From Torpedo marmorata (lineage: Eukaryota), in the NCBI GenBank assembly GCA_977017645.1, contig OZ360236.1:64666001-64730000 (forward strand): a stretch of 64,000 nt of DNA, written 5' to 3'. A program made the position numbers and the translations under genes. Below are positions 4,019 through 63,520 of the stretch, in pieces. A model generated the notes under the pieces. It saw only the letters and a program-made list of their open reading frames with translations. It was not told where the DNA came from and did not search any database. How positions within the stretch are numbered: the first letter of the stretch is position 1; each line of letters opens with the position of its first letter.

Positions 4019-5855
4019 AAAATAATGGCTTTATCCCAAGGTGATTATACTAGGTGTAGAGAAGTTACGGAATTTAAGTGGGCAAAAGAAGGAATTAAAT
4101 ATTTGGGAGTTAAAGTGGATACAAAATTAGAAAATTTATATAAATTAAATTATGTACCTTTATTTACGAAAATAAAGAAAGATTTGGAAAATTGGAAAGA
4201 TTTGCCTATAACTTTAATGGGGAGAGTAAATTGTATTAAGATGAATATTTTTCCAAGAATTCAATATCTTTTTCAATCAATTACTTTTGGAATTCCAAAA
4301 ATTTTTTTTAAAGATTTAAAGTTTATAATTAGGAATTTTTTATGGAAAGAGAAGTTAGCAAGAGTGAGTATGGATAAGTTAACATGGAATTATGAGATGG
4401 GAGGATTGCAACTTCCTAATTTTCAATATTATTATAAAGCATCTCAATTAAAATTTGTTAATGAATTTTTTGATTTAGCTAAACCTTCTGCTTGGGTTAA
4501 TATTGAATTAAATAATATAGGAGAAAATTATAAAGAGGATATTATTTATAAGTGGAATTCTAAATTATTATTAGTAAAAAAGAAAAATTCACCGATTATT
4601 AAACATTTGTTGGAAATATGGACACAGGTAGATAAAGAAATAGGCGGCAGAGGATTAATTTCTTTAAATATGCCATTATATCAAAATCCACTTTTATTAT
4701 TTACTATGAATAATCAGTTATTGAAAGCATGGTTTCAAAAGGAATTAAGAATTTTAAAGATTGTTTTGAGGCTGGAAGATTTGTTACGTTTCAAAGATTG
4801 AAGGAAAAATTTAATGTATTAGATAATACATGGTTAGCTTATTATCAAGTTAAAGCTTTTCTGGTTGAGAAATTAGGAGAAGATTTGATTGCTTCAAGAC
4901 ATAATGAGTTAGAATTATTAATAACTAAAGCAAATGTTAATAAGTTTATTTCTCAAATGTATAAATTATTTCAGAGAAAAATGCCTAAAGTAGGATTACA
5001 TAAATCAAGATTAAAATGGGAATTAGATTTAAATGTTAATATAGCTGAAAATCACTGGAAAGATTTATGTAAATTAAGATTGACTAAAGTTATTAATGTT
5101 AGATATAGATTAGTACAATATTTTTTTTTCATCAACTGTATTTAACACCAAAAAAATTAAAGAAATTTAATCCGACATTGTCGGACTTGTGTTTTAGATG
5201 TAAGAAGGAAGTAGGTTCTTTTGTTCATTTTACATGGTTATGTCCAAAGATTCAAGATTTCTGGTTGAAAGTTAAGAATTTTTTAGATAGAGTTTTTAAA
5301 GTTATGTTTCCATTGGACCCTATGTTATTTTTATTTAGAGATATTAGAAAATTTAGTATTAGGAATAGATTGAATATGTATCAGGTAGAATTTTTGCGAA
5401 TTGCTTTAGCTGTCTCAAAAAAATGTATTGCTATTACTTGGAAATCAGATTTAGATTTAAATTTAGATAGGTGGCATGCAGAACTTCGTTCATGTATTCC
5501 TTTGGAAAAAATTACTTACAATTTACGTAATAAATATCATTCCTTTTTTAAAAATTTGGAGCCCATATATGAGTTATGGGTTTAAGGATTTGAAATCTCT
5601 AGAAATCAGGTCTATTGGCGAGTTTAACCTTCAGGATAAAATAAGTTTTTGGATGGTTCTCTCCTCTCTATTAATTTACTTTTTTCTTTCTTCTTTTTTT
5701 TAAACTATTTTTAGATTAGTGGGGTTGGGGGGGTTAGGGAAGGGTGGGAGGGTTTGGGGGGAGGAAATTTATATCACTTGTATTTTGGAAAGTATATATT
5801 TTGAATTGTGTATTGTGTGATTTAAAAATTTAAATAAAATATTTAAAAAAAAAAC
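4019..5855 (+). mobile_element. 5'-truncated L1/Tx1 LINE (ORF2 C-terminus, 3' UTR, polyA)
   Basis: IKYLGV, GGLQLPNF, CCHC (CFRC...HFTWLC), LEKITY; AATAAA and A-tail; TSD CCATAGAAAAAGAG at 4005-4018 and 5856-5869. Confidence 0.93.
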
Positions 5856-9894: not shown

Positions 9895-10085
9895 TCAGCT
9901 ACCAGTAATCAGCTGGAGGAACAGCATCTGTGGGAGAAAAAGAAATGTCAATGTTTTCAGCCTTGATGAAGGGTTCTGGCCTGAAACGTTGACCATTCTT
10001 TTTCTCCCATTGTTGCTGCTCAACCTGCTGAGTTCCTCCATCAGATTGTTTATTGCTCCAGATTCCAGCATCTGCAGTCTCTCAT
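9895..10085 (+). mobile_element. Penelope-terminus-derived short element with degenerate hammerhead motif
   Basis: CCTTGATGAAGGGTTCTGGCCTGAAACGTT (9961-9990) is flanked by inverted GGGAGAAAAAGAA / TTCTTTTTCTCCC and followed by CCTGCTGAGTTCCTCCA. Confidence 0.65.
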
Positions 10086-15500: not shown

Positions 15501-17520
15501 TCCCCACCAAATCATTCAGGGTGTTCCCCAACCAGAAGCCCTGGATGAACAGTGAAATCCAGAACTTGCTGAGAGCCAGATCGTAGGCATTTAAGTCCGG
15601 AGATCCAGATCAGTACAGCAGGAGCAGGTATGACCTCCAGACGGCTATCTCCCAGGCGAAGTAGAGATTCCGGATGAAAATGGAAACAATAAGGAACACC
15701 CGACAGTTGTGGTAGGGTCTGAATGCCATAACCTGTTACAAAACCAAATCCAGTAAAGTAGCTGACGGCAAAGCTTCTCTTCCAGAGGAGCTCAATGCCT
15801 TCTATGGCCGATTTGACGACAGTAACAGTGAAGAACCACCCCTCCGCACCCCCACGTCCCCTGACAATCCCACCCTGTCCGTATCTGAGGATAAAGTGCG
15901 TGCTGCCTTCAGGAGAGTGAATCCGAGGAAAACATCCAGCCCGGATGGAGTACCTGGTCGAGTATTAAAGATCTGTGCTGATCAACTTACCAAGGTATTC
16001 ATGGATATCTTCAATATCTCACTCCAGCAGGGCATGGTACCCACCTGTTTCAAACAGGCATCAATCATACCAGTGCCCAAGAAGAGTGCAGTAACCTGCC
16101 TTAACGACTATCGGCCAGTAGCACTTACATCAACAGTGATGAAGTGTTTTGAAAGGCTGGTGATAAAGCATATCAGCTCCTGTCTGAGCGGTGACATTCC
16201 AGTTTACCTATCGCGGCAACAGGTCTACGGCGGATGCCATCTCGCTGGCTCTACACAAAGCCCTGGAACACCTGGACTGCAAAGATGCATACATCAGGAT
16301 GCTTTTTATCAACTACAGTTCGGCATTTAACACCATCATCCCCTCAAAACTGATCAGCAAACTCCAAGACCTGAGAGTTAACACCCCACTGCGTAATTGG
16401 ATCATGGATTTCCTCACCTCCAGACCACAATCAGTGAAGATTGGTAAGAACTTCTCCTCCACAATCTCCATCAGTACCGGAGCACCACAGGGTTGTGTTC
16501 TTAACCCCCTGCTCTACTCACTTTACACCTACGACTGTGTAGCTCGGTATGACAATAACACCATCTACAAATTTGCCGACGATACCACTGTAGAAGGTTG
16601 TATAAAGGAACGGGATGAATCAGCATACAGGATGGAGATTGAAAACCTGGCTGAATGGTGCACCAAAAACAACCTTGCACTCAATGTCACCAAAACTAAG
16701 GAGCTGATTGTTGACTTCAGGAAAGGAAAGCCAGAGTTATACAATCCAGTGATCATTGGGGGATCAGAGGTGGAGAGGGTGAGCAAATTTAGGTTCTTGG
16801 GAGTCACTATCTCGGAGGACTTTTCCTGGACCCAACACACCAATGGCATTGTGAAGAAAGCACGTCAGTGCCTCTACTTCCTCAGGAGTTTGCAGAGGTT
16901 TGGTATGACACCAGAAACCCTGACAAATTTCTACAGGTGTGTGGTGGAAAGTGTGCTGACCGGCTGCATCACGGTCTGGTATGGGAACACCAATACCCCT
17001 GAGCGTAAAGCTCTCCAAAAGGTAGTGGACACAGCCCAGGATATTACTGGCAAAACCCTCCCCACTATTGAGTACATCTACAGGGAACGCTGCCGTCGGA
17101 GGGCAGCAGCAATCAACAAAGACCCACACCACCCAGCGCACGCTCTGTTCTCGCTGCTGCCATCAGGAAAGAGGTATAGGTGCCACAAGACTCGCACCAC
17201 CAGGTTTAGGAATAGCTGCTACCCCTCTACCATCAGAATCCTTAACGACAAAATCAAATCAGAGACTCATTTAAGGACTCTTACTCGTGCACTTTATTGA
17301 TTTTTCTTTGCTCTCTCTGTATTGCACAGTCAGTTTCATTTTCATTTTCAGTTTCATTCGTTACCTGTTAGCAGTTCTTTTGATTGTTTACATGCTTAGG
17401 CTGTGTACAGTTTACTTTTTGCACTACCAATTAGTGGTAATTCTGCCACGTCTGCAGGAAAAAAAATCTCAGGGTTGTATGTGATGTCATGTATGTACTC
17501 TGACAATAAATCTGAAATCT
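12563..17520 (+). mobile_element. Near full-length Rex1/Babar LINE (APE endonuclease + RT), defective, split by an L1/Tx1 insertion
   Basis: 5' AAAATGGCG; APE motifs TETWL, GGGVC, VYIPP, SDFN, SDH; RT YRPVALTS, PQGCVL, YKFADD; TCTGAAATCT tail. Stops and frameshifts at about 15580-16200. Confidence 0.92.
13387..15136 (+). mobile_element. 5'-truncated L1/Tx1 LINE, same family as 4019-5855
   Basis: Near-identical ORF2 C-terminal peptides and A-tail. TSD AACCAGGCCTGTGTCAA at 13370-13386 and 15137-15153. Confidence 0.93.
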
Positions 17521-18356
17521 ATTCAAGACCAAAATATGTAACCTCATAAAAAGCACTACAAACCATACATTCTGGAGAGTGTCTTGCATCCCAGTTTATT
17601 TGCCCATGGAAGTGTCCTAAGGTGCACAGGTTTCCCAATAAAATTTGAATCAGTCCTTATTTCATCTCATGCTCTAAATCTCAAGACAGTTCCTCCAAAT
17701 CTGACCTTTTGAATTGTCCCACTGTTTATTGTTTAACCATTATTTGCCTTTATTTGTGTAAATGGAGGTAGCTGAGCTCAGAAATATGTGCACTAAATGC
17801 TGTATTTTGGATATTATCATGGTCAAAGTCAGCTTGAGCTTTGATACAAGCTCATAGGAAATATAAATTGGAGGTCAATTTTATCAAAGGCAGATCTGAT
17901 TGGAATGAAGGGTGTAAGATGGAGAGGATTTTTAATTGCACCAAGAGCCCTGAGGAATTGACATGGCCAGGATTGGGGTTTATTTCCAAATTACCGGTAA
18001 ATTGGGTGTCCTCTTCGCAGACTGTTTTTTGGTCCTGAAGGTAAGAAAGCTGTGCTAACAATTTTCTCCCAGTGGGGAAGTTAAGCCAGTGATGGAAGAA
18101 AGGAAAAGAGAGAACCAGGGTGCAGGGAGACACAGTTGCACTGTTGTGAGCTGAAAAAAGTTGTGTGAGACTGACAGCAGCATTCTCCTCCCTCACTGAA
18201 ATGATTAAAGAAGATAAACCTGCATTTCTGAGAGACCTACAGCTATTTCCGCATGCACTGTGACTTAATGAGTGCGAAAAATACACCAGGAATCTATATA
18301 AGTGACTGGAACTCAATGGACAGGGTTCATCTGAAACAGCTGTGTGCCTGGCATAT

Positions 18357-20415
18357 TCAGAATCAGAATCAGAACTTATTATCATGAACAAGTCATGAAA
18401 TTCGGTGTTTTGTGGCAGCATCATAGTGCAATTAACATTTATATTAACCATCTTACGACATTACTATAAAAAATTATAATTAATAGTGCACGAAAAGTAA
18501 GGCAGTGTCTTTGGTTCATTGATTATTCAGGAATCTGATGGCAGCGGGGAACAAGCTGTCCTTGTGCCATTGAGTGCTCGTCTTTAGGCTCCTGTACCTT
18601 TTTCCCAAAGGAAGCAGAGTGAAGAGGGCATGGCCTGGGTGATGGGGGTCTTTGAGGATGGAGGCTGCTTTTTTAAGACACCGCCTAATGTAGATGTCCT
18701 CGATGGAGTGAAGTCTGGTGCCTGTGATATCACAGGCAGAGTTAACAACCCTCTGGAGTTTACTCTTGTCCTGAGAGTTGGCACCTCCATACCAGGCAGT
18801 GATGCAGCCAGCCAGAATACTCTCCACGGTACACCTGTATAAGTTTACGAGAGTCTTCAGTGACATACCGAATCTCCGCAGACACCTCACAAAGTATAGC
18901 CGCTGACGAGCCTTCTTTGTGATTACATCAACGTGGATGCTCCAGGACAGATCCTCGGAGATGTTGACACCCAGGAATTTGAAGTTCTTGACCCTCTCCA
19001 CTACTGAGCCCTCGATGAGGACTGGGTCATGTTCCCCTGACTTCCTCCTGAAGTCCACAATCATCTCCTTGGTTTTGCTGATGTTGAGCTCAAGGTTATT
19101 GTCATTACACCATTCAACGAGCTGATCTATCTCCCTCCTGTACGCTTCCTCATTGCCGTTTGTGATTCTGCCGACAACTGTGGTGTCATCAGCAAACTTG
19201 TAGATGGCATTGGAATTGTGCCTGGCCACACAGTCATGGGTGTATAACGAGTAGAACAGTGGACTAAGCACACATCCTTGGGGTGCACCTGTGTTGATAA
19301 TCAGTGAGGAGGAGATGTTGTTTCTAATTCGTACTGACTGTGGTCTTCTGATGAAAAAATTCAGGATCCAGTTGCAGAGGGGGGTACAGAGGCCTAGAGT
19401 TTGTAGCTTCTTGACCAGCACTGAGGGAATAATGGTATTGAAGGCCGAGCTGCAGTCAATGAAGAGCAGCCGTATGTATGAATTGCTGTTTTCGAGGTGA
19501 TCCAGAGCTGAGTGGAGAGCCAGCGATATTGCATCTGCTGTGGAGCGATTGCGACGATAGGCGAATTGCAGTGGGACTAGATCTTTGCTTAGGTATGTGT
19601 TAATTCTGGCTATGACCAGCCTCTCAAAGCATTTCATCACAGTAGAAGTTAGTGCTACTGGGCAGTAGTCGTTGAGGCAGCCCACACTACTCTTCTTGGG
19701 TACCGGGATGATTGATGCCCATTTGAAGCAGGTGGGAACCTCTGACTGCCGCAATGAGAGGTTGAAAATGTCCGTGAACACTCCGGCTAGTTGGTTGCCG
19801 CAGATTTTCAGTACCCTGCCAGGTACGCCGTCAGGGCCTGACGCCTTGCGAGGGTTCACCCTCTTGATTGATGTTCTGACGTCGCCCTCAGAGACAGATA
19901 TCACAGGGTCCTCAGCCTTTTCAGGGATTCTAGTAGGCACTGTTTTGTTCTTCTTCTCAAAGCGGGCATAGAAGGTGTTCAGCTCATCGGGTAGTGAAGC
20001 ATCACAGCCGTCTATAGTGTTCGCCCTTGCTTTGTACGCTGTAATGGCCTGCACTCCCTGCCATAGCTGGTGTGTATATGTCTCTGTCGCTAGCTTCCTC
20101 CGGAATTGCCACTTTGCTTCAGAGATGGCCTTCCGCAGGTCGTGCCTGGACTTCTTGTAAAGATCCCGGTCCCCGGCCTTAAGCGCCCTTGTTCTCGTCC
20201 TCAGCAGGTTGCGAATTCTCTGATTCATCCAGGGCTTCTGGTTGGGGAACACCCGGTATTTGCACGTGGGCACACACTCATCCACGCAGGTCTTGATGAA
20301 GTCGGTGACACTGTTGCATATTCATTTAGGTCTATGGCTGAGTGCTTGAATATGTTCCAGTCCACCGATTCAAAGCAGTCCTGCAGACGCTCCTCCGCCC
20401 CCCTCGACCATACTT
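18357..20415 (-). mobile_element. 5'-truncated Rex1/Babar LINE
   Basis: Contains the 589-aa RT ORF and a (TTCTGA)n tail, seen as TCAGAATCAGAATCAGAA at about 18357. Confidence 0.92.
18516..20285 (-). CDS. Rex1-type reverse transcriptase ORF (no endonuclease)
   Basis: Uninterrupted 589 aa with SGPDGVPG, PQGCVLSP, YKFADD, FKFLGV. Confidence 0.8.
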   Translation of the reverse strand: MDECVPTCKYRVFPNQKPWMNQRIRNLLRTRTRALKAGDRDLYKKSRHDLRKAISEAKWQFRRKLATETYTHQLWQGVQAITAYKARANTIDGCDASLPDELNTFYARFEKKNKTVPTRIPEKAEDPVISVSEGDVRTSIKRVNPRKASGPDGVPGRVLKICGNQLAGVFTDIFNLSLRQSEVPTCFKWASIIPVPKKSSVGCLNDYCPVALTSTVMKCFERLVIARINTYLSKDLVPLQFAYRRNRSTADAISLALHSALDHLENSNSYIRLLFIDCSSAFNTIIPSVLVKKLQTLGLCTPLCNWILNFFIRRPQSVRIRNNISSSLIINTGAPQGCVLSPLFYSLYTHDCVARHNSNAIYKFADDTTVVGRITNGNEEAYRREIDQLVEWCNDNNLELNISKTKEMIVDFRRKSGEHDPVLIEGSVVERVKNFKFLGVNISEDLSWSIHVDVITKKARQRLYFVRCLRRFGMSLKTLVNLYRCTVESILAGCITAWYGGANSQDKSKLQRVVNSACDITGTRLHSIEDIYIRRCLKKAASILKDPHHPGHALFTLLPLGKRYRSLKTSTQWHKDSLFPAAIRFLNNQ

Positions 20416-25744: not shown

Positions 25745-25868
25745 ACTTTTTTATTCAGGTTTCTACCTGTTTCTCCCAATGAAGGGCTCAGGCCCGAAAC
25801 CTTGATTGCCTTTTATTTCCTATGGATACTGTGTAATCTGCTGAGTTTATCCCCCACTTTTGTGTCGT
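25745..25868 (+). mobile_element. Penelope-like 3' terminus remnant with decayed hammerhead motif
   Basis: ATGAAGGGCTCAGGCCCGAAAC followed by CCTATGGATACTGTG...CTGCTGAGTTT. Confidence 0.6.
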
Positions 25869-31370: not shown

Positions 31371-31794
31371 GATCAATCTCTGTTTGGTGTATACTCTATG
31401 ACTGAGTTGTCACTGCCTTTGAACGTGAAAAAAAATCAAAGATTCATGCACTCTTGGTGTAGAAATTACTTTTCATCTCTGTCCTGGATGGCCAACTCCT
31501 CATTTTGAGATGGTAACCCATGGCTCTATACATCCACACACAAAAGACTGCAGATGCTGGAATCCTGATTTAAAAAATGAACAGCAGGACCCAGTTGCAG
31601 GGTCTGAATCAGAAACGTTGACTATCCATTTCCCACCATCAATGATGCCTGATCCACAGAGTTCCTCCAGCAGCTCATGTTTTGTTCAATGTACCCAGAC
31701 AGGGATAATGACGTTTTTATGTCCAATCTATCAGGTTCCAAAAAAACTTTAGGCGCTTCAGTGAGTCACCTCATCTTTCTAATTCAAGATTAAA

Positions 31795-32765
31795 AATCAG
31801 GGGAGGCAGCATTTGTTCCATCATCAATTCATCGTGGTACACAGACGTGACGGTCATGTCCCAGTCCTGCTCCCCCGACCTGGAACATCTGGCGATCAAT
31901 TGTCGCCCATTCTACATTCTGAGGGAGTTCACCACCATCATCCTGGTCGCAGTGTACATTCCGCCCCAGGCTAACATCAGTCTGGCACTGGAGGGACTGA
32001 GCAATGTGATAAACAGCCATGAGACAGCACATCCTGATGCCTTCCCAATCATTGTGGGAGACTTCAATCAGGCCAATCTGAAGAAGTCACTGACAAACTA
32101 CCACCAACACGTCACATGCGAGACCAGGGGAACCACCACACTAGACCACTGCTACACCACTGTGAAGAACGCATACCGAGCCATACCACGACCGCACTTC
32201 GGCAAGTCTGACCACCTGGCTGTACTTCTACTCCCGACGTACAAGCAGAGACTGAAGACCACAGCACCAGTGGTGAGGACGGCGAAAGTATGGTCAAGGG
32301 AGGCGGAGGAGCGTCTGCAGGACTGCTTTGAATTGGTGGACTGGAACATATTCAAGAACTCATCCATAAACCTGAATGAATATGCAACAGGTGTCACCGA
32401 CTTCATCAAGACCTGCGTGGATGAGTGTGTGCCCATGCGCAATTACCGGGTGTTCCCCAACCAGAAGCCCTGGATGAATCAGAGAATTTGCAACCTGCTG
32501 AGGGCGAGAACAAGGGCCTTTAAGGCCGGGGACCGGGATCTTTACAAGAAGTCCAGGAACGATCTGCGGAAGGCCATCTCTGAAGCTGCTGCTTCTTCCG
32601 ATTCCAAGGTCTGCCAGCGATCTTTGTATATCCATGTTGTCGGGTAAGTTTGATTTTATGTTTCTTATTTTTTGTTTGATTTTTAGAAGTTCTGAACGGG
32701 AATATTTGATTATTTCCTTCAGAGCTGCACGCAAAGAGTCGCCGCTGTAAGGCGCCATCTTGGTC
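31795..32765. mobile_element. Rex1 5' piece with internal inversion: endonuclease on + (31795-32585), element 5' end on - (32586-32765)
   Basis: The + strand encodes VYIPP, GDFN, LDHCY, SDH. The - strand begins CAAGATGGCG and encodes MAPYSGDSLR...IKYSRSELLKI. Confidence 0.75.
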
Positions 32766-33291: not shown

Positions 33292-33363
33292 AATATATGA
33301 TCTGAGAGCTCACCCAAAATGAACTGTAAAATTTAGTTTGGGTGAGCTCTCAGATCATATATT
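33292..33363. repeat. Perfect 27-bp inverted repeat with 18-nt loop
   Basis: AATATATGATCTGAGAGCTCACCCAAA (33292-33318) pairs with TTTGGGTGAGCTCTCAGATCATATATT (33337-33363). Confidence 0.95.
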
Positions 33364-33555: not shown

Positions 33556-34268
33556 GCAAGTCTGCAGATGCTGGGATTGAGCGCAATACACAATGTGCTG
33601 GAGAAACTCAGCCGGTCACGCAGCATCCATAGGAAGTAAAGGGTAACCAACATTTCAGGCCTGCATCAGGAATAAGAAAAAGCAGGCAGGCACCTGAATA
33701 AAAAGGTGGGGGGAGGGGGAGGAGAAAATAGGAGGGAGGAAGGGGAAGGGGGAGAAGCACAGGTTAACCAATAGAAGGTAAAAGGTGGCTACAGGTGGGA
33801 AGATAGAAGAGAAATAAAAGCTGAGCTGAGAGTGGGAGATGGCCAAGAGTAGTTCTCTGATAGGAGAAGCAAGGGAAATGGGTGGGGAGCTGGAGGGAAG
33901 GAGAGAGGAGGAAAGGGAAAGAGAGAGAGAGAGAGATATGGGAGGGAGTTCATGGAAATTGAAGGTTGATGTTAATGCCGTCTGGTTGGAGAGTGCCTAG
34001 ATGGAATACATGGTGTTGTGGGTGGCATTGGTTTGGTAGTGCATGAGGGCCACTATATCCACCTATTACCTCCTACCTGTTAACCTGTGCTCCTCCCCCT
34101 TCACTTTCCTCACTCCTCTCCTCCTCGCTCCTCCCGCTACCTTTTTATTCAGGTGTCTTCCTGCTTTTTTCTTATTACTGACAAAATGCCCAGGCCCAAA
34201 ACGTCGGTTACCCTTTACTTCCTATGGATACTGCGTGACCTGATGAGTTTCTCCAGCACACTTGTGTC
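33556..34268. mobile_element. Fold-back pair of Penelope-like 3' ends
   Basis: The left arm (-) has a PLE C-terminal remnant (QPDGINI) plus terminus. The right arm (+, from ~34053) is its inverted terminus. Both carry decayed hammerhead motifs. Confidence 0.75.
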
Positions 34269-38540: not shown

Positions 38541-39366
38541 TCACTGGGGTCTGCAGTGCCACCATTCCAAGAACAGATCCAATTTTCTCCTTGATCTGAG
38601 GAAACCATTTTTTCTTGGTTCTGTTTATTTTAAATACATTTATTCACAACACAATTTATTTTATTTTATTTAAATATCTGTGCTCTAGAATTGCACTGCA
38701 GACTTTGCTGGTAGACACAGCTAATGGAATAATAATCTTTTGCTGATCACCATGTAATTGATGGGATTTATAGTATCTAAACCGATTACTGAAGGAGCAT
38801 TAGAACCAAACTACTAGTGAAGCCATTGTCAGATCATGTGTTAGAGAGGACAGAAAATCAAACTATATCATTAACATAAAAGATTCAAAATGGAAAGAGA
38901 AGGTGATGTGATTTATTAGTCAGTGCCACTATTCCCATTTTTGCAGGAATCTGTCATTTGACCTTTGAGAGCAAAATAAGCATAGAAAATGGTTTTAAAA
39001 ATTAGATATAAAATGGGCTTTAAATTGATTAGATGCCTTATGTTGCATGCATTAAGAACAATGCCTCATACATTACTGCAGGCCAAACTGAACTGGGTTT
39101 TAAGTGGAAATCATTCAATAATGACACAGAAAGCATATTTTAGAAAATATTTTGGAACAAAAATAAATCACGAATTTCAGCACCAATTACAATGAGATAA
39201 TGAAAGCAATCACAACATTTAAAGAAGCCCTGAGATTTGATTGCTCACAAACAGGAACATTACACCAGAAGTAAATCACGAAAATCTGTGGTTGAAGTAA
39301 AAAACACAAATGCTGGAGAAACTCAGCAGGTCAAACAGTGTCTTTTATGTAGCACAGCTAGAACTA

Positions 39367-39407
39367 CATAACCGACATTTCGGGCTTGAGCCCTTCATCA
39401 AAGTATG
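39367..39407 (-). ncRNA. Minimal type I hammerhead ribozyme-like motif (PLE terminus)
   Basis: Reverse complement reads CATACT-TTGATGA-A-GGGC(TCAA)GCCC-GAAATGTC-GGTTATG. Confidence 0.6.
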
Positions 39408-40939
39408 AGAAAATGCCGGCAGGCGTCCGATCAAAAGAGTGAGGGGGGAAGTGGGGGTGGCAAAGGCAGGAGATGATAGGTGGAGAAAGGAGGGAGGGGA
39501 CAGCAGCAAAGAGGGGGAGGAGGGATGGCTGGGTGGGTGGAAAAAAAACTGGAAGGATAGGTGAGGGGGGAGGGGAAGGAAAAGGCAAGCAGGTTTAGTG
39601 GAAAGCAGAAAAGTCAATGTTAATGCCATCTGGCTGGAGAGTGACCAGACGGAAAATGAGATGTTGTTCCTCCAATTTGCAGGTAGTCTGGGTAGGATAG
39701 TACATAAGGCCATGGACAGACATGGGATTGTGGGAGAGTGACTCGGAATTAAAATGGCTGGCTACTGGGAGGTCGCTGTTGTTGCGGACGGAGGGGAGGT
39801 GCTCAGCAAAGCGATCTCCCAATCTACGACTGGTCTCTCCGATGTAGAGAAAGCCACAAAGGGATCACTGGATGCAGTAAATAAGTTCTCTGGATGTACA
39901 AGTGAAGTGTAGTTTCACTTGGAAGGCCTGTTTGGGGCCCCGGACCGTGGTGAGGGGGGAGGTGTGGGTGCAGGTGTTGCACCCCCTGCGGGCACAGAGG
40001 AAGGTGCGGGGGTACGATGGATGGGGAGGGATGAGTGCACGAGTGAATCACGGAGGGAGCGGTCCCTGCGGAAGGCCGAGAGGGGAGGAGAAGGAAAAAT
40101 GTGTCTGGTGGTGGGAACCTGTAGTAAGTGCCAGAAATTCCGGCTGATAATGTGTTGGTTGCGGAGCCTGGTGGGGTGGTAGGTGAGGATGAGGGGGATT
40201 CTATGTTTGTTGCGTCTGGGGGCAGAGGGGGCCAGGGCAGATGAGCGGGAAATGGAGGAGATGCGGGTGAGGGCTGAGTTGATGGTGGTGGAGGGGAAGC
40301 CAAGTTTGTGGCAGACATTTCAGAAGATCTGGACTTGATAGACCTCATCTTGAGAACAGATGCAGCGGAGACGGAGAAATTGAGATAAGGGGATGGAATC
40401 CTTGCAGGGGACAGGGTGTGAGGAAGTGTAGTCCAGATAGTTGTGGGAGTTGGAGAGATTGTAGTAAATGTCGATGGAAAGCATGTCTCCTGAGATGTAG
40501 ACAGAGAGATCCAGGAAGGGGAGAGTGTTATCGGAGATGGACCAGGTGAGTTTGAGATCGGGGTAGAAGTTGGATGTGAAGTGGATGAAGTTGACAAGCT
40601 CATCGCGGGTGCATGAGGCAGCCCCGATGTAGTCGTCGATATAACGGAGGAAGAGATGAGGGGTCTTGCCTGTGTAGGCTTGCAGCATTGATTGCTCCAC
40701 AAAGCCCACAAACAGGCAGGCGTAGCTGGGACCCATGCGGGTACCCATGGCTACTCCTTTGATTTAGAGGAAGTGGGATGAGTTGAAGGAGAAGTTATTG
40801 AGTGCGAGGACAAGTTCTGCCAGGCGGAGGAGGGTGGTGGTAGATGGTGACTGGTCGGGTCTTTGGTCCAGGAAGAAGCGAATTGCTTTCCGGAGCTACC
40901 AACTCCGCATCCGCCGACCCGATCCCTGGCCCCGGCCAC

Positions 40940-41540
40940 CCACCGGATGGAGCTCCCAATGCCACGGCAGCTGACCCAACCCTGGACCCCGGCCGCTGAC
41001 TCACCGGAGCTCCCAACGCCAAGGCCGCTGACCTGAGCCCAGACCCCGGCCGCCGACTCACCTGAGCTCCCAACGCCACGGCCGCCGACCTGAGCCCAGA
41101 CCCCGGCCGCCGACTCACCTGAGCTCCCAACGCCACGGCCGCCGACTCGAGCCTGGACCCCAGCCGCCAACTCACCAGAGCTCCCAACACCACGGCCGTC
41201 GACTTGAACCTGGACCCTGGCCGCTGACTCACCGGAGCTCCCAACGCCACGGCCGCCGACCTGAGCCCGGGCCTCGGCCGCCGACTCAGCTGAGCTCCCA
41301 ACGCCACGGCCGCCGACCTGAGCCTGGACCGCGGCCGCCGACTCACCGGAGCTCCCAACGCCACGGCCACCGACTTGACCATGGACCCCGGCCGCCGACT
41401 CACCGGAGCTCACAACGCCACGGCCGCCGACCCAGGCCCTGGCCGCTGGCTCACCGGAGCTCCCAACGCCACGGCCGCCGACCCGGGCCTGGACCCCGGC
41501 CGCCGACTCACCGGAGCTCCCAACGCTACGGCCGCCCACC
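40940..41540 (+). repeat. GC-rich 57-bp minisatellite, about 11 units, in the PLE 5' region
   Basis: AGCTCCCAA recurs at 40951, 41008, 41065, 41122 and onward with 57-bp period. One unit is 51 bp. Confidence 0.92.
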
Positions 41541-42075
41541 CCTACCCGCGCCCGGGGCTCCGATACGACGGTACTCCCGACGCCATGGCCTCCCACTCCA
41601 GCCCGGGCCCCGAGCTCCTACTCACCAGAGCTCCTGATGCCTCCACTGCCGACTCCCTAAACAGACTGCTACCTGCTGGAGCCTCCCACGCTGACTGCCA
41701 CTGGAGTCCTCATCTGGCTACTGAAACCCACTTACTTATCCCCCTTACTACTCCTTCCCTATCCTCCTTCACCTCTCCCTACTCCACCCCCATCTCCCCC
41801 TCTCTGCCCCCCTCTCCTCCCGAACCCTCAGACCTCACTCCCCCCCCCTCTCAGGCTACCCCCCCTACCACCCTCTCCTACCCTCCTACATCCCCCTCCC
41901 CCCTCCGACCTCTCCCACCGACCCCCTCCGACACCCCTCTTCCCCCGCCAACAACCCCAACCCCCCTCCTCCTCTCTCCAAACTCCCCCACCCTCCATCT
42001 CCACCCTCTGACTTCCCCAACCCTCCCGCTCCCCCCAACACCCTCCACAACACCGATCCCCACTCTAACCCCTGC

Positions 42076-43732
42076 TTGGTTTTTACTATCCCCTCTGACC
42101 TTCCCCTCTCTGAGACGGAGCGCCCGGTCCTCAGTAGAGGCCTCACCTTCATCCCCCTCCACCAACACCTCAATGAGTTCCGCGCACGCCACGATGCCGA
42201 ACTCTTCTTCCGTCGCCACCGCCTCCGGGCTCACTTCCATGACCGTGACCCTCCACCCCGCACCCAAGACCCTTTCTCCCGCTTCAGGCCTTCTTCCTCT
42301 TCCTGGACACCTCATCCTGGCCAGCTGCCCGCTCTGGACCTTTTTATTTCCAACTGCCGCCGAGACATCAACCTTCTCAACTTCACCATCCCCCTCTCGT
42401 ATTCCAACCTCACCTCCTCAGAACGCTCTTCCCTCCACTCTCTCCACAACAATCCCAACCTCACCATCAAACCCGCAGACAAGGGCGGTGCGGTTGTGGT
42501 CTGGCGCACTGACCTCTACCTTGCTGAGGCCAGTCGACAGTTCTCAGACACCTCCTCCTACCGACCCCTCCCACAGGACTCCACCACTGCACATCAAGCC
42601 ACTGTCTCCAACACCATCTCTGACCTCATCACCTCCGGTCACCTTCCCTCCACGGCCACCAACCTCATTCTCTCCCACCCCCGCACTGCCCGTTTCTACC
42701 TTCTACCCAAGATACACAAACCCAACCATCCAGGCAGACCCATTGTCCAACTTCCACTCCGATCTCAAACTCACCTGGTCCATCTCCGACAACACTCTCC
42801 CCTTCCTGGATCTCTCTGTCTCCAGCTCGGGAGACAAGCTTTCCACCGACATTTACTACAAATCCTCCAACTCCCACAACTATCTGGACTACACTTCCTC
42901 ACACCCTGTCCCCTGCAAGGATTCCATCCCCTTCTCTCAATTTCTCTGTCTCTGCCGCATCTGTTCCCAAGATGAGGTCTTCCAGTCCAGATCCTCTGAA
43001 ATGTCTGCCTTCTTCCACAAACGTGGCTTCCCCTCCACCACCATCAACTCAGCCCTCACCCACATCTCCTCCATTTCCCGCTCATCTGTCCTGGCCCCTT
43101 CTGCCCCCAGACGCAACAAACATAGAATCCCCCTCATCCTCACCTACCACCCCACCAGCCTCCGCATCCAACAAATTATCCGCCGGAATTTCCGGCACTT
43201 ACTACAGGATCCCACCACCAGACACATTTTTCCTTCTCCTCCCCTCTCGGCCTTCCGCAGGGACTGCTCCCTCCACGATTCCCTCGTGCACTCATCCCTC
43301 CCCACCCATCGCACCCCCGGCACCTTCCCCTGTGCCCGCAGGAGGTGCAATACCTGCGCCCACACCTCCCACCTCACCACGGTCCGGGACCCCAAACAGG
43401 CCTTTCAAGTGAAGCTACACTTCACTTGTACATCCAGAGAACTTATTTACTGCATCCTGTGTTCCCTTTGTGGCTTTCTCTACATCGGAGAGACCGGTTG
43501 TAGATTGGGAGATTGCTTTGCTGAGCACCTCCTCTCCATCCGCAACAACAGCGACCTCCCAGTAGCCAGCCTTTTCAATTCCGGGTCACACTCCCACACT
43601 CACATGTCTGTCCATGGCCTTATGTACTATCCGACCCAGATTACCCGCAAATTGGAGGAACATCATCTTATTTTCTGTCTGGGCATTCTCCAGCCAGATG
43701 GAATTAACATTGACTTTTCTGCTTTCCACTAA
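42076..43732 (+). pseudogene. PLE RT-GIY-YIG ORF with internal deletion of the RT catalytic core
   Basis: GRPIV is joined directly to SNFHSDLKLT at ~42746 with a frame change. The YIDD region is absent and the GIY-YIG region is retained. Confidence 0.85.
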
Positions 43733-43918
43733 ACCTGCTTGCCTTTTCCTTCCCCTCTCCCCTTACCTGTCCTTCCAGTTTTTTTCCACCCACCCAGCCA
43801 TCCCTCCTCCCCCTCTTTGCTGCGGTCCCCTCCTTCCTTTCTCCACCTATCATCTCCTGCCTTTGCCACCCCCCCTTGCCCCCTCACTCTTTTGTTCGGA
43901 TGCCTGCCGGTATTTTCT

Positions 43919-43959
43919 CATACTTTGATGAAGGGCTCAAGCCCGAAACGTCGGTTATG
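43919..43959 (+). ncRNA. Minimal type I hammerhead ribozyme-like motif (PLE terminus)
   Basis: TTGATGA core, stem II GGGC/GCCC, GAAAC-GTC with palindromic ACGT stem III, stem I CATACT/GGTTATG. Confidence 0.65.
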
Positions 43960-45380
43960 TATTTCTACCTTTGATACATAAAATACACTGTTTGACCTGC
44001 TGAGTTTGTCCAGCATTTGTGTTTTTTACATTACACCAGAGTTGTGTGGTTTACCCACATTTATTCGTGATAATGGCATTCCTAATGTAAAATTCAGTTG
44101 CAGTCCTCAGTGCAAATGTCTGTTTGTTTGGAGTGCCTCACGTTGCTTTAAATGCTTCACTGCACAGATTCTGAAAGTAGCAACTACAATTCAGTACCAA
44201 GTAACATTGATGCTCCAGCCCTTAAATAAATTGTATTTGTGCCTTACTACATTGCATCAGATAGCTGAAGGCGACACACTGCAAAGTAGGGGTCATGCCT
44301 CCCTTCCTTCAGCTCAGAATTGAAGAGTAGATGATACCAAGCCTTCCTGTGAAGGTCATTCACCCCATATCTTGGAGCTGCACCTGAACAAATTTCATAA
44401 CCTTGCAAGACCTAATGGCCCTGTATATCCAGACATGATTCCGCTTTGCTGCAATCTGCAAAAAAACAGAATATTTGCACCTACGAATTAGGAACAAAGT
44501 AGACAACTCAGTCTCTGTAAGATTATAGTTGATAAAATGATCTATCTGCTTCAAAAAAATCCACCTCTCCCAGAGAGGGAGTGTACGTAGCACTAAGTAT
44601 GAAAAAATGCCCTTTAAACAATGCAGGAAGATTTCCAGGTACTGAATCCCTTAGAGGGCAGTCTATCCTGTACAAACTTTGGAAAGCTTAGATTGTTCGA
44701 ACCTGTTCAGCCTGAGGGTTTCTGCTCAAGGAAAGGCAGAGAAAGGCATTCTTCCTGAAGCAAACTTTTCGTGGCATCCGGTGCAGATCAGCTGCTATTG
44801 TCTTCTGCAATGAACGAGCGATTGAAAAGTGTGGGGTGACATTGACCTTGACATCTATGGGTGGAGAGTTGAAGTAGTTCCATCTGAAGAAAGTCACATA
44901 CACAGTGGTTACACAATGTAATTTCCTATTTAAGCTTAGAGAAAATTAGATACAATATTAAAGACAGTAAGTTTTAATTTGATAAGATCTGGGGCCCATT
45001 CATGGAATATTATCACGATTGGAAGATTTAATAAGTTTGGATGCTCCGAGGATTCTCTGTCTAGTGTCTGAAGGCCGTTATTTGATCAATATTTTTACAT
45101 TTTTTTAAATGGTAACCTTGATTAGAGGAAGGGGTTAGAATAGAATTAGGTTAGTTTTTTTTTGTTTTGTTGTTTTATTTTCCTTTCTTTTTTTTTCTTT
45201 TTATCTTTTTTTTTTATTAATTGGACAAATGGGTTTAACTATGACCGTTGTTGTTTATTTTAAATCACACAGAATTTACCCTCTGTTTATATGGAATATA
45301 ATTTAATGTAGTTACAATATTTTATATTTACATGTATATGATATGACTTGTTATCTGTTTATTACAGATTATGTATGTAT

Positions 45381-45736
45381 TATAGCGGCCCGCGACCTAC
45401 TCCGCAGGCTGACACAGCGAGCCGTGGTCGAACACGGCGATTGCGCAGGCGGCACATGATTTGGATGACCTATTTCCATAGGCCACAATGGCAAGGAGGG
45501 AACAGGCTAATCCCTAAGGATGGATCATGGCCCGACCAATCCTGGGCGTCGCGCCTTAGGCCACGCCCCATCAGTGACGCAGCAGTCAGGCTCGGCCCGC
45601 CTATAAAAGGCAAAGCCAACGGCAGAATAGGCAGTTATGTCTTGATGCTCAGAGGGTGTGCATCTCCTCTTGAGCTCCAGAACTAGAGCGACGACCGACT
45701 CGATGCGCAGAGCTATAACCGTAGCGACGCGCTACA
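45381..45736 (+). repeat. 5' LTR
   Basis: T(A)TAGC...GCTACA; CCAAT, TGACG and TATAAAA motifs; direct repeat of 49515-49870. Confidence 0.93.
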
Positions 45737-45778
45737 GTGGTGACCCTGACTGGTCCAAATGGCGATTTGGACCCGAAG

Positions 45779-46450
45779 ATGGAACAGCCTTCAATCAACA
45801 TGGTTTCATTTAAGCTGCCAAGCTTCTGGACATCGCAGCCGCTGGTATGGTTCGAGCAAGCCGAAGCACAGTTCGCCCTTCGAAGGATCTCCGATGACAC
45901 CGCCCGCTATTACTACGTGGTAAGCGCCCTCGAGCAGGAGACGGCGGCTAGAATTATTGACTTCCTGCTGCGTCCTCCAGAGCAGGGGAGGTATGTGGCC
46001 ATCAAGGAGCTGTTGTCCTGCACTTTCGGGCTCTCGAGGCGAGAGCGGGCGGCCCGATTGCTGCATATGGACGGCTTGGGGGACAGGGCCCCTTCCGCCC
46101 TCATGAGCGACATGTTCGCCTTAACGGATGGCCACAGACCTTGCCTGCTGTTCGAGCAGGTCTTCCTGGAGCAATTGCCAGAGGACATTTGGCTGTTTCT
46201 CGCGGAGGAGGACTTCAGCAACCCCAGGAGGGTAGCTGTCCGAGCGGACGAGCTCTGGGCGGCGAAAAAAGACGACTGTGCAACAATGGAGCAAGTGATC
46301 ACGTCTCGTCCACGGTGAACAACTAGGCGGCTCCCCGAACAGTCGACCCGCCAACCGATGGAGCCCACCGGTGAGGAGTACTGCTTCTACCACCAGCGGT
46401 GGGGTTCCGAGGCCCGTCGATGCCGCTCCCCCTGTGCGTTTCAGGGGAAT
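45779..46450 (+). pseudogene. gag: gag of CsRn1-like element
   Basis: KLPSFWTSQPLVWFEQAEAQF. A premature TGA at 46316-46318 precedes in-frame CFYHQRWGSEARRCRSPC (C-x2-H-x9-C-x3-C). Confidence 0.88.
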
Positions 46451-49400
46451 GCCAGGGCCGGCCGCCGTTGATGGTTGCGGTGGTCGGCCTGCATCACAAC
46501 CTCCTCCATGTACAGGACGCCCTGTCGGGCTGCCAGTTCCTGGTCGATACTGGGGCCGAAATCAGTGTTTTTCCCCCTTCCAGCTCCGACATCCGCAGCA
46601 GCAGGGTTGGACAGGGCCTGAGAGCGGCCAATAATTCAAATATTCACACTTTCGGCACCCGCACCATCCCCCTCCGTTTTGGGGACAATCATTTTACCTG
46701 GAAGTTCACGCTGGCGGCTGTGCGGCAACCGCACCTGGACACGGAATTCCTTAGGGCCAATTCCCTACTAGTGGACATTAAGGGGCGAAGATTGGTGCAT
46801 GCCACAACTTTTCAGACTCTTTCCTTGAGTGGGACTGAGCTCACTGCCCTCTGCCTACACTCGGTAGCAGCCGTCGACAGTGAGATGGCATGGATTATGG
46901 CCGAATTTCCTGCTATCACAACACCACATTTCTTCTCGGCGGAACCGAGGCACGGGGTTAGGCATCATATCATGACGACGGGACCTCCCCTTCACGCCAG
47001 GGCGCGCCGCCTTCCTCCCAAGAAACTCAACCTCGCCAAAGAAGAGTTCCGGAAAATGGAAGAGGTGGGTATCGTGCGGCGTTCTGACAGCCCCTGGGCC
47101 TCCCCACTCCACATGGTGCCCAAGGCAGCAGGGGGCTGGAGACCATGCGGGGATTACCGCTGTCTCAACGAGGCCACCACACCGGACAGATATCCAGTAC
47201 CCTACATCCAGGACTTCACTGCTAACCTACAGGGGGCACGGATATTCTCAAAGTGGACCTCGCTAAGGGCTATCACCAGATCCCGGTCCAGCCGGAAGAC
47301 ATCGCCAAGACTGCCATTATCACCCCCTTTGGTCTGTTTGAGTTTCTTTGAATGCCGTTCGGCCTGAAGAACGCAGCTCAAACCTTCCAGAGGTTGATGG
47401 ACACTGTGGGCAGCGATCTCAAGTTCACCTTCATTTATTTGGATGACATACTGATAGCCAGCCGCAATCGTGCTGAACATGCCATCCATATAAGACAAGT
47501 GTGCACCCGCCTGAAGGAGTTCTGGCTGATAATCAACCCTGCCAAGTGCCAGTTCGGGCGGGAGTTCATCGATTTCCTGGGGCACCATATTAACAGGGAT
47601 GGGGCCAGGCCACTGCCTGAAAAGGTGGAGGCCATCCGATCATTTGCAAAGCCCGCAACGATAAAGAGCCTGCAGGAGTTTGTCGGTATGATTAACTTTT
47701 ATCATCGTTTCATACCGGCAGCAGCTGGCATCATGCGGCCCTTATTCTCCCTCATGGCAGGCCCAAAGAAGGAGATCGAATGGACGCAGGAAGCATCAGA
47801 GGTTTTCCAAACCGCAAAAGACGCCCTGGCAAACGCCAAATTCTGGTGCATCCTAGGACAGACGCCCCGACAGCCCTCACTGTGGACGCCTCCAACACAG
47901 CGGTCGGGGGAGTACTTGAGCAGCTGGTCGCTGGACAATGGCAGTCGCTAGCCTTTTCCAGCGAGTACCTCCGCCCACCGGAGCTCAAGTACAGTGCTTT
48001 TGATCGGGAGCTCTTAGCTCTATACCTGGTGGTTCGACATTTCCGATACTTCCTGGAGGGCACGAGGTTCACGGACCACAAGCCACTCTCCTTTGCTTTT
48101 AGCAAGGTGTCGGCCCCATGGTCAGCCAGGCAGCAAAGGCACCTGTCCTACGTGTCTGAGTTCTCCACGGACATCGCACACATTGCCGGGAAGTCGAATG
48201 TGGTGGCCGACGCGCTATCACGGCCAGCCATACTGGAAATACACGCCCTCGCCCCAGGCATCGACTACGCAGCCCTGGCTGAGGCACAACAAGCAGACCT
48301 CGGCATGCCTGCGTACCGGATGGCGGTAACCGGTCTCCTTCTGGAGGACGTTCGCATTGGCCCAGGAAAGCATACGCTTTTGTGCGACACCTTGACTGGT
48401 ACGCCTAGACCCATCATACCTGCAGCATGGAGAAAACGGGTTTTCGACACGATCCACAACCTGGCGCACCCAGCCATCAGTACCACGGTTAAGATGGTGG
48501 CCAGCCGGTTCGTATGGCATGATCTCCGTAAAGAGGTCAGTCAGTGGGCCAAGATCTGCATGCATTGCCAGGCGTCAAAGGTGCAGACGCACATTAAAGC
48601 CTCTCTCCAGTCATTCGAGCCGGCACAACGGAGGTTCAGCCATGTGCATGTGGACATTGTAGGCCCACTGCCAGTGTCAAGAGGTGCTCGATACCTCTTG
48701 ACGGTGATGGATCGTCTGACTAGGTGGCTGGAAGCAGTCCTGCTTGTGGAAACATCCGCAGAGTCGTGTGTCAGGGCCTTGCTAAACACCTGGGTGGCGC
48801 GGTTTGGAGTCCCTGAGCACCTTACGTCGGACAGAGGTGCCCAGTTCACCTCCAGCCTTTGGGCGGCCTTGGCCAACTACCTGGGAACACAACTCCATCA
48901 TACTACCGCATACCATCCTCAGTCTAACGGGTTGGTGGAGAGGTTCCACAGGCACCTCAAAGCGGTCCTCATGGCTCGGCTCACAAGACCGCACTGGGCT
49001 GATGAACTTCCTTGGGTCCTCCTGGGCATCCGCACCGCGCCCAAAGACGATTTTGACATATCTGCGGCGGAGATGGTCTATGGCGCACCCCTTGTCATCC
49101 CGGGTGAATTCCTGGCCGACGCCGGGAACACGGAAGAGACTCCAGCGGTAGCCCTGACTCGTCTACGGCAATGACTGGGTACGCTGGCCCCGGCACAGCC
49201 CAGGGCGCATGGCCAGCCTAAAACTTACGTTCCAAGGAACTTGAAGGACTGCAAGCATGTATTTGTAAGGCGAGGGGCACATCGGCCACCACTCCAACAA
49301 CCATACGAAGGGCCGTACCGGGTTCTCAAACACAACGACTCCACTTGTGTCATAGATGTTGGCGGCAGGGAGGAAACGGTTGTGGTTGACCGACTCAAGC

Positions 49401-60354: not shown

Positions 60355-60527
60355 GGGGTGGCAAACCTTTTAATTTTTAATTTAGACATACAGCACGGTA
60401 ACAGGCCATTTCGGCCCACGAGCACATACCGGGGATGTAGGTTAATTGGGCGGCACGGACTCGTGGGCCGAAATGGCCTGTTACCGTGCTGTATGTCTAA
60501 ATTAAAAATTAAAAGGTTGGCCACCCC
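60355..60527. repeat. 68-bp-arm palindrome made of SINE 3' tails capped by hAT-TIR-like ends
   Basis: 60355-60422 versus 60460-60527, one mismatch. The arms match the tail of SINE 50948-51207. Outer ends are GGGGTGGC(A/C)AACCTTTT. Confidence 0.9.
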
Positions 60528-62275: not shown

Positions 62276-63520
62276 GGGAGACAAGCTTTCCACCGACATA
62301 TATTACAAACCCATTAACTCCCACAACTACCTTGACTACACTTCCTCACACCCTGCCCCCTGCAAGGATTCTATCCCCTTCTCTCAATTTCTCCGTCTTC
62401 GCCGCATCTGTTCCCAAGATGAGGTCTTCCAGTCCAGATCTTCCGAAATGTCTGCCTTCTTCCACAAACGTGGCTTCCCCTCCACTACCATCAACTCAGC
62501 CCTCACCCGCATCTCCTCCATTTCCCGCTCATCTGCCCTGGCTCCCTCTGCCCCAGACGCAACAAACATAGAATCCCCCTTATCCTTAACTACCACCCCA
62601 CCAGCCTCTGCATCCAACACATTATCGTCCGGAATTTCCGGCACTTACAACAGGATCCCACTACCAGACACATCTACCCCTCTCCTCCCCTCTCTGCCTT
62701 CCATAGGGACCGCTCCCTCCATGACTCCCTCGTGCACTCATCTCTCCCCACCAATCGCCCCCTTCCCCTGTGGCCGCAGGAGGTGCCACACTTGTGCCCA
62801 CACCTCCTCCCTCACCACAGTCCGGGGCCTCAAACAGGCCTTTCAAGTGAAGCAACACTTCACTTGTATATCCGCAGGACTGATTTACTGCATCCGCTGC
62901 TCCCTTTGTGGCCTTCGCTACATCGGAGAGACTGGGCGCAGATTGGGAGATCACTTCGCTGAGCACCTTCGCTCTATCCGCACCAGTTACAGAGACCTCA
63001 CAGTAGCCAATCACTTCAGTTCTGTGTCACACTCCCATACTCTCATTGCTGTCCATGGCCTTATGTACTATCCCACCAAGACCACCCGCAAATTGGAGGA
63101 ACAAGACCTGATTTTCATTCTGGGCACTCGCCAGTCAGATGGCATTAACATCGACTTTTCCGGTTTCTGCTAACCTGCTCTCCTCTTCCTCCTTCCCCCT
63201 TCCCATCCCCTTTCCACTTCTCCTCCCCCCTTCCCTCTCTATTCACCTAGTCTTCCCTCCTCCCCTTGATCGCTGCTGTCCCCTCCCTCCCTTCTCCACC
63301 TATTACCTCCTGCCTTTGTGACCACACCTCCCCCTCCCCCCTTACTCTTTTGTTCATATGCCTGCCGATATTTTTCCATACCTTGATGAAGGGCTCAACC
63401 CCGAAATGTCGGTTATGTAGTTTTACCTTTGCTAAAGAACACTGTTTGACCTGATGAGTTTCTCCAGCATTGTGTTTTTACTTCAATCACGGTGTCTACA
63501 GATTTTCGGGTTTTACTTTT
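62276..63520 (+). mobile_element. 5'-truncated Penelope-like element inserted in a CR1 remnant
   Basis: TDIYYKP...LIYCIRCSLCGLRYIGETGRRLG; terminus as at 44027. The flanks rejoin as CR1 WLTNR...TSGVPQG. Confidence 0.9.
63377..63417 (+). ncRNA. Minimal hammerhead ribozyme-like motif (PLE terminus)
   Basis: CATACC-TTGATGA-A-GGGCTCAACCCC-GAAATGTC-GGTTATG. Confidence 0.55.

What the first reader, a model, noticed from the sequence alone, without database searches (positions are those of the whole stretch)
43919..43959. Variant minimal hammerhead ribozyme (UUGAUGA core) conserved at PLE termini
Seen: TTGATGA-A-GGGC-TCAA-GCCC-GAAAC-GTC with stem I CATACY/GGTTATG occurs here, at 39367-39407 (-) and at 63377-63417. 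Decayed versions lie at ~9961, ~25776, ~31600, ~33650 (-) and ~34180. Known: PLEs carry minimal type I hammerheads with a palindromic stem III that act as dimers. Unusual: U replaces C3 (U3-G8 instead of C3-G8) and an extra A follows A9. The variant is shared by at least four copies, so it looks like a family trait rather than decay. Predicted cleavage is after GUC at 43952 (inference).
Basis: partly seen in the sequence, partly recalled or inferred. Interest (0 to 1): 0.7.

Follow-up and report, generated by a model that had tools for sequence, protein, structure and literature searches.

The report
Wobble-core hammerhead in Penelope retrotransposon
The end of a very abundant Penelope-type jumping gene carries a small hammerhead-shaped RNA motif with a U·G wobble in place of the usual C-G core pair, a swap already listed in print for another animal; it likely cuts only weakly, and most genomic copies run unbroken across the predicted cut, so they were likely copied from uncut RNA.

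Summary
The motif is real. It is a minimal type I hammerhead in the 3' pseudo-LTR of a Neptune-type Penelope-like element. U3 is a lineage trait: 82,812 exact U3 matches against 619 C3 in the 6.2-Gb genome, and 88 of 95 sampled copies of four subfamilies carry U3 and none C3. Across those subfamilies the other core positions stay fixed, the flanks change and stem I covaries, so the fold was likely under selection. Neither 'unusual' feature is new. The extra base after A9 is the published consensus, and a U3·G8 PLE hammerhead is listed for an acorn worm in Cervera & de la Peña 2014, Fig. S3. Cleavage is untested. Mutagenesis of another hammerhead and folding predictions point to weak activity. 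Added here: copy 5' ends pile up at the start of stem I (952 matches) and seldom at the cut (134; controls 53 and 81), so templates were likely uncut and the RNA may begin at the hammerhead. Corrections: two of the 'four copies' are one insertion, and the 'decayed' sites are older subfamilies, two with C3. The scan noted variant PLE hammerheads before in other genomes.

The parts
43919..43959 (+). Minimal type I hammerhead motif with U3·G8 core; predicted cut between 43952 and 43953
40889..44027 (+). 5'-truncated Neptune-type PLE copy (youngest subfamily, A1): N-terminal repeats, RT with an internal deletion of about 520 nt at 42745/42746, CX4CX2C linker, GIY-YIG endonuclease (stop near 43732), 3' pseudo-LTR; cannot encode an intact RT
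   Evidence: intact-frame relatives
40890..41540 (+). 57-bp tandem repeat (11.5 copies), part of the element's 5' coding region, variable in number between copies
39270..40890 (-). Inverted 5'-truncated copy of the same insertion, ending in the PLE tail
39367..39407 (-). Second hammerhead of the same insertion (U at 15.2)
39257..39269 (+). Left copy of the 13-bp target-site duplication
44028..44040 (+). Right copy of the 13-bp target-site duplication
62276..63518 (+). Older 5'-truncated copy (84% to locus L091) with hammerhead at 63377-63417 (U3·G8, stem II mismatch, U at 15.2)
9957..9997 (+). Hammerhead remnant of an older related subfamily, U3·G8, different stem I
25770..25810 (+). Remnant of an older subfamily (B2-like), core decayed
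34172..34212 (+). Remnant of an older subfamily (B1) with canonical C3
33610..33690 (-). Remnant of subfamily B1 with canonical C3 and an internal deletion (approximate limits)

Best explanation
The motif is the minimal hammerhead in the end repeat of a roughly 100,000-copy Penelope-like element whose lineage carries a U3·G8 wobble, and it likely still works as a slow, dimer-dependent self-cleaving RNA that would need the element's own protein. Shown: its place in the pseudo-LTR, about 150 nt before the likely ORF start in tandem copies; U3 in four subfamilies; the rest of the core fixed while flanks change; compensatory changes in stem I. Predicted: alone it folds into an inactive rod in which the core pairs with the cleavage strand; two copies (the two ends of a 4-kb tandem unit, or two RNAs) could pair through the 4-nt palindrome and swap stem I strands to build two active sites. 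Inferred: cutting is slow or late, because reverse transcription starts about 75-115 nt downstream of the cut and reads through it. Many short copies stop at the first bases of stem I, which likely marks the 5' end of the RNA.
For: Location in PLE pseudo-LTRs; direct pLTR-tail-ORF tandems in 4 of 20 long copies. Exact-core counts: U3·G8 82,812, C3-G8 619, U3-A8 1,189, U3 with C or U at 8: 268; minor forms are at mutation-noise level. Relaxed stem II: U3 99,276, C3 2,643. Copies not selected on the core: U3 in 88 of 95 for A1-A4 (no C), C3 in 11 of 16 for older B1/B2. Among A1-A4 majority sequences 0 of 12 core positions change, 10 of 18 downstream flank columns do, and the free positions 7, 17 and loop II vary. 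Two stem I pairs change on both sides and 2.1 goes C to U keeping its G partner (12 hand-picked rows). In older lineages with another stem I the 3-8 pair is C-G 20, U·G 36, U-A 43, C·A 1 among the first 100 of 908 matches (counted by eye). A PLE min-HHR of the green anole cleaves only with PLE protein and depends on the 3-8 pair (PMC11167929).
Against: No cleavage data. In a type III hammerhead all single and double mutants of this region except the G-C swap had low activity (PMC9901934 section 7; heatmap values not seen). ViennaRNA favours the rod (-11.8) over the hammerhead fold (-7.7 kcal/mol), the double hammerhead (-13.7) is far above the best dimer (-31.0), and in 151-330 nt of context stem I has near-zero probability. 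The most abundant subfamily has the largest rod-versus-hammerhead gap (4.1 kcal/mol; 0-0.8 in A2-A4; one copy each). 56 of 68 unselected copies span the cut and 1 starts at it; genome-wide the cut boundary (134, 21 of 30 checked are true ends) is only about twice the controls (53, 81). Subfamily samples are small, were sorted with by-eye signatures and share ancestry, so the covariation is few events.
Confidence: 0.62

Rival explanations
1. The motif no longer cuts in vivo. The hammerhead-like sequence and stems are kept for another job at the RNA's 5' end (internal promoter or start site, binding site for the PLE protein, or dimerisation through the palindrome), and U3 was tolerated because catalysis stopped mattering.
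For: C3U-type single mutants are low-activity in a lab scan. Templates were mostly uncut. Anole HHR mutants do not affect insertion in vitro and no RNA-seq ends were found at its cut. Naiads proliferate without canonical HHRs (PMC8557442). 5' ends pile up at stem I: 952 matches, 30 of 30 checked are true ends; 9 of 78 consecutive copies start at -30 to -34.
Against: The positions that stay fixed are the catalytic ones (G5, A6, G8, A9, G12-A15.1, U16.1) and those that vary are the ones hammerheads leave free (7; 17 within C/U). The 3-8 positions avoid C·A in older lineages. A promoter or binding role would not obviously give this pattern.
Confidence: 0.27
2. A dead relic: one master copy lost its ribozyme through C3U and amplified by chance, with nothing in the motif under selection.
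For: Most copies come from one young burst (A1, 2.9% mean divergence), so copy number by itself says nothing about selection.
Against: U3 is shared by four subfamilies that differ in 10 of 18 flank columns but 0 of 12 core columns, with stem I compensations.
Confidence: 0.07
3. Different register: a canonical C3 followed by an inserted U in the U-turn, not a U3·G8 pair.
For: Subfamilies A2-A4 have C just before the two U's, and the A lineage looks like B1 plus one base at this place, so U3 may have arisen by insertion.
Against: That C pairs with G1.1 in stem I, and in A1, the dominant subfamily and the one in this window, it is U (52 of 60), leaving no adjacent C.
Confidence: 0.04

Closest known systems
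Minimal hammerheads (min-HHR) of metazoan PLE pseudo-LTRs (Cervera & de la Peña 2014, PMC4209133)
   Same: Type I, no loop III, palindromic 15.2-16.2, extra base after 9, G10.1-C11.1, short stem I, pLTR location, mostly single dispersed copies
   Different: U3·G8 instead of the C3-G8 consensus; copy number about 100,000 against up to about 9,000 reported per genome there (different search methods)
Saccoglossus kowalevskii (1) PLE min-HHR in Fig. S3 of PMC4209133
   Same: U at 3 with G at 8, extra A, same palindrome, PLE-associated
   Different: Listed in the alignment without comment or assay in the text I read; different stems; hemichordate
U3-A8 min-HHRs of Schistosoma mansoni Cercyon PLEs (PMC4209133) and natural U3-A8 hammerheads (Perreault 2011, PMC3088659)
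   Same: U at position 3
   Different: Those restore a Watson-Crick pair; here the main lineage keeps G8. A separate old lineage in this genome does have U3-A8
Hammerhead of Poseidon element PAc, green anole (Frangieh 2024, PMC11167929)
   Same: Vertebrate PLE, HHR at the pLTR-ORF junction, RT starts downstream of the HHR giving clustered 3' ends and tail, uncut RNA serves as template
   Different: Canonical C3-G8; Poseidon clade; ORF starts inside the HHR there but about 150 nt after the cut here
Neptune/Nematis-type EN+ PLEs (Craig 2021, PMC8557442)
   Same: C-terminal GIY-YIG with CCHH, CX2-5CxxC linker, DKG motif, partial tandems, inverted 5'-truncated copy, tail
   Different: Clade not placed on a tree here; 57-bp repeat array in the 5' coding region

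Membership tests
PLE minimal type I hammerhead | U4 G5 A6 N7 G8 A9 and G12 A13 A14 A15.1, U16.1, H17 | tested here: met
PLE minimal type I hammerhead | Watson-Crick 3-8 pair (C3-G8, or U3-A8 variant) | tested here: not met
   U3·G8 wobble in 82,812 exact copies. A U3·G8 motif is nonetheless included in the family's founding alignment, so this does not exclude membership as the family was published
PLE minimal type I hammerhead | Extra nucleotide between 9 and 10.1, and G10.1-C11.1 pair | tested here: met
PLE minimal type I hammerhead | No loop III; palindromic 15.2-16.2 allowing a dimer | tested here: met
   C at 15.2 in 53 of 60 A1 copies
PLE minimal type I hammerhead | Stems I and II with compensatory variation between families | tested here: met
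   Stem I: 2 pairs change on both sides; stem II: no such change, nearly invariant (12 hand-picked rows)
PLE minimal type I hammerhead | Located in both pseudo-LTRs flanking an RT-EN ORF | tested here: met
   Both ends carry it in loci L073 and L091; upstream pLTR-tail-ORF also in L087 and L088
PLE minimal type I hammerhead | Self-cleavage after H17 as dimer or with protein | not testable with these tools
   No assay possible; no raw RNA reads available
Rfam hammerhead families | Match to a curated covariance model | tested here: not met
   No hammerhead hit at E up to 10; the motif lacks stem-loop III
EN+ Penelope-like element | RT followed by C-terminal GIY-YIG in one ORF | tested here: met
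   RVT_1 at cut-off (E 5e-7) and weak GIY-YIG (E 0.02-0.05, below cut-off) in related copies; DKG and GIY-YIG motifs read; the window's own frames give no Pfam hit at 1e-3
Neptune/Nematis clade | CX2-5CxxC linker plus CCHH in the endonuclease | tested here: met
   CX4CX2C and the C/H residues read by eye; criteria from PMC8557442
Neptune/Nematis clade | RT phylogeny with named references | not tested
   No reference PLE sequences were fetched

The most novel reading that the evidence does not exclude
In this lineage the RNA starts at the first bases of the hammerhead, and the U3·G8 wobble is a selected brake: it keeps a cleavable fold but slows cutting enough for the RNA to be translated and reverse-transcribed uncut. 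The genome would then preserve a natural path C-G to U·G to U-A at the catalytic 3-8 pair, with the wobble stage as the most successful form.
Probability: 0.18. Interest if true: 0.65.

Novelty: new member of a known kind. Interest (0 to 1): 0.36.

Why it matters
What PLE hammerheads do is still open: they are conserved, yet cut poorly and were dispensable for insertion in vitro. This family gives natural C-G, U·G and U-A versions of one core pair in one genome, and a genome-wide record of where copies begin relative to the cut. One small panel of assays could show whether selection here favours cutting, slow cutting or only the fold. Practically, descriptors that require C3 would miss about 97% of these motifs in this genome (2,643 C3 against 99,276 U3).

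Tried and rejected
Rfam scan: no hammerhead hit. Sequencing runs: no RNA holder listed; only contigs could be laid, which show the family in runs of five coded organisms but cannot show RNA ends or expression. One search lists C/U variation at 2.1 and no row for position 3 among the 40 rows shown, but 63 rows were hidden and one search gave no letter table, so U3 in other species is not established. Idea that U3 was selected to weaken the inactive rod: a natural C3 copy folds the rod 2.4 kcal/mol more strongly, but B1 has C3 with the same stem I strand, and the older U3 lineages have A at 1.2 where U3 would strengthen the rod, so I do not rely on it. CpG decay as the source of U3: position 3 is not in a CpG in A1-A4; it may contribute to some A8 or U4 states in old families. 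Target microhomology as the sole cause of the stem I pile-up: another boundary starting with the same three bases gives 81 against 952 matches (the 81 were not classified). RT stalling at the 3' edge of stem I: that boundary is the lowest (53). The subfamily tree separates A from B groups but has few columns, weak support and a midpoint root, so the order of events rests on divergence levels only. A shuffle-based chance count inside the window was not obtained; chance is judged from the reversed-pattern controls. Earlier-findings search by sequence returned nothing. Not held, so not read: Lünse 2017, Przybilski & Hammann 2007, Nelson & Uhlenbeck 2008; they may contain U3·G8 examples or rates.

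Full report
Observation. The 41-nt motif lies at 43919-43959 (+) as described. In hammerhead numbering U3 is 43925, G8 43930, the extra A 43932, stem II 43933-43944, the palindrome 43948-43951 and C17 43952. Stem I has six pairs and one bulged U. Copies at 39367-39407 (-) and 63377-63417 match 40 and 38 of 41 bases; both have U at 15.2 and the second has a stem II mismatch. Rfam has no hammerhead match.

Host element. The window comes from a 6.22-Gb animal genome; the repeats resemble those of cartilaginous fishes (recalled, not tested). The motif sits about 185 nt after the stop of an RT plus GIY-YIG frame and 75 nt before the element's end. Comparison with 20 long genomic copies shows the window copy is 5'-truncated at 40889, lacks about 520 nt of RT at 42745/42746, and is joined head to head to an inverted truncated copy (39270-40890). 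A 13-bp direct repeat at 39257 and 44028 bounds both, so these two hammerheads are one insertion. Four of the 20 long copies show pLTR with hammerhead, tail, then ORF; the first ATG that opens a long frame lies about 150 nt after the cut in L073 and L088, and the unit is 3,975 nt in L091. Related frames give RVT_1 at cut-off and a weak GIY-YIG hit and show DKG, a CX4CX2C linker and CCHH, the Neptune/Nematis signature in PMC8557442 (passages). No RT tree was built.

Is U3 a family trait? Yes. Exact 24-nt core counts are U3·G8 82,812 (reversed control 0), C3-G8 619, U3-A8 1,189 and U3 with C or U at 8 268. The minor forms (0.3-1.4%) fit mutation after insertion. With stem II left free the counts are U3 99,276 and C3 2,643. 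I then took 80 evenly spaced 10-kb stretches and found copies through the tail only (65 of 101 kept an alignable stem II region). Pooling with flanks of other loci gave 213 distinct rows that passed an anchor score, sorted into subfamilies by tail signature. Leaving out rows selected on the core, U3 is in 58 of 60 A1, 13 of 13 A2, 11 of 15 A3 and 6 of 7 A4 copies, with no C; B1 and B2 have C3 in 5 of 7 and 6 of 9. Mean divergence from the subfamily majority is 2.9% (A1), 6.4% (A2), 14% (A3), 5% (A4), 15% (B1), 13% (B2).

Was the fold under selection? Among A1-A4 majorities 0 of 12 core positions change, 10 of 18 flank columns downstream of stem I do, and positions 7, 17, loop II and 2.1 vary in ways a hammerhead tolerates. 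On 12 hand-picked copies 95.5% of cells pair, two stem I pairs change on both sides and 2.1 changes C to U against G1.1; stem II shows no double change. These are few independent events among relatives. In still older lineages with another stem I, the first 100 of 908 matches have C-G 20, U·G 36, U-A 43 and C·A 1 at 3-8 (counted by eye; Fisher p 3e-5, overstated because copies share ancestry). So the pair is kept, with the wobble accepted.

Can it cut? Untested. For: the pattern above, and the anole PLE hammerhead, which cleaves only with PLE protein and needs the 3-8 pair (PMC11167929, parts 1-2 of 4). Against: in a type III hammerhead every mutant of this region except the G-C swap had low activity (PMC9901934, passages and section 7); PLE min-HHRs are weak even as dimers (PMC4209133); ViennaRNA puts the monomer in a rod with the core paired to the cleavage strand (-11.8 against -7.7 kcal/mol), the double hammerhead at -13.7 against -31.0 for the best dimer, and loses stem I in longer context. 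Tertiary contacts and protein are not modelled.

What the copy ends say. 3' ends cluster 74-79, 102 and 113 nt after the cut, like the internal RT starts and tail of PAc. Of 68 copies not selected on the core, 56 start upstream of the cut, 1 at it, and 8 at -35 to -28, one of which is subfamily divergence. Patterns asking for 22 element bases followed by four non-element bases gave 134 at the cut (21 of 30 checked are true ends, 4 of them one tandem array), 53 at +7 (25 of 30), 81 at +22 (unclassified) and 952 at -32 (30 of 30; 14 of 30 abut an inverted copy, and palindromes count twice). About 10 of those 30 show short target duplications by eye. In 78 consecutive exact-core copies at the start of contig C1, 9 start at -30 to -34 (two share a flank; one internal deletion and one subfamily divergence dropped). 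So templates were mostly uncut, and there is a preferred end at the start of stem I. A transcription start there is my preferred reading: the bases resemble an initiator (consensus recalled), and Drosophila Penelope has an internal promoter with its start shortly before the intron that ends at helix I (PMC2377424 passages). cDNA fold-back after copying the hairpin is a real alternative. An earlier AI note on another genome (e1-8073188) mentioned uncut templates; I saw it before running this test.

Comparison with print. PMC4209133 (main text parts 1-3 of 4, supplement parts 1-2 of 3 as text) names the extra base after 9 as a conserved trait, describes U3-A8 in S. mansoni, and lists in Fig. S3 a PLE-associated Saccoglossus motif with U3 and G8. 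PMC7151607 (passages) writes out a saltern variant with U3 and G8. PMC3088659 (passages, sections 8-9) reports natural U3-A8; its figures and supplements were not seen. I also saw passages of PMC6765202, PMC3884650, PMC6155905, PMC2837043 and two bioRxiv preprints. My searches found no paper that assays or discusses a U3·G8 PLE hammerhead or this lineage, but the three most relevant papers were not held.

Verdict. A real, well-supported new member of a known kind. The U3·G8 core is rare but in print; what is added is its persistence across a whole successful lineage, three states of the 3-8 pair in one genome, and the map of copy ends. Interest 0.36.

Noticed in passing
loci L203-L232 (one search matches, locus positions about 1500-1530): Older related PLE lineages with a different stem I carry C3-G8, U3·G8 and U3-A8 cores; U3-A8 is the commonest among the first 100 matches and C3·A8 almost absent.
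   Followed up: partly
window 43919-43924 and loci L293-L322: Strong pile-up of copy 5' ends at the first bases of stem I, often as short (110-145 nt) inserts with target duplications or perfect head-to-head palindromes; possible transcription start or cDNA fold-back.
   Followed up: partly
window 40890-41540: 57-bp GC-rich tandem repeat inside the PLE's 5' coding region, variable in copy number between elements; this insertion's inversion point lies at its edge.
   Followed up: partly
window 25770-25810; L141:7740, L149:540 (-), L197:2978: Several old copies have C, or the CpG-decay pattern expected from C, at position 4, hinting at a former U4C subfamily.
   Followed up: no
L257-L260 (one place on contig C11): A tandem array of a 30-nt unit that begins exactly at the predicted cut site.
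   Followed up: no
window 690-4801 and 45725-49174: Two Ty3/gypsy-like pol regions with frameshifts (protease, RT, RNase H, integrase motifs read by eye).
   Followed up: no
window 12737-20321 and 31712-32647: Fragments of non-LTR (LINE) endonuclease and RT frames of at least two families.
   Followed up: no
window 60393-60489 and 33297-33358: Near-perfect hairpins that give sub-threshold miRNA hits in Rfam; probably inverted repeat fragments.
   Followed up: no
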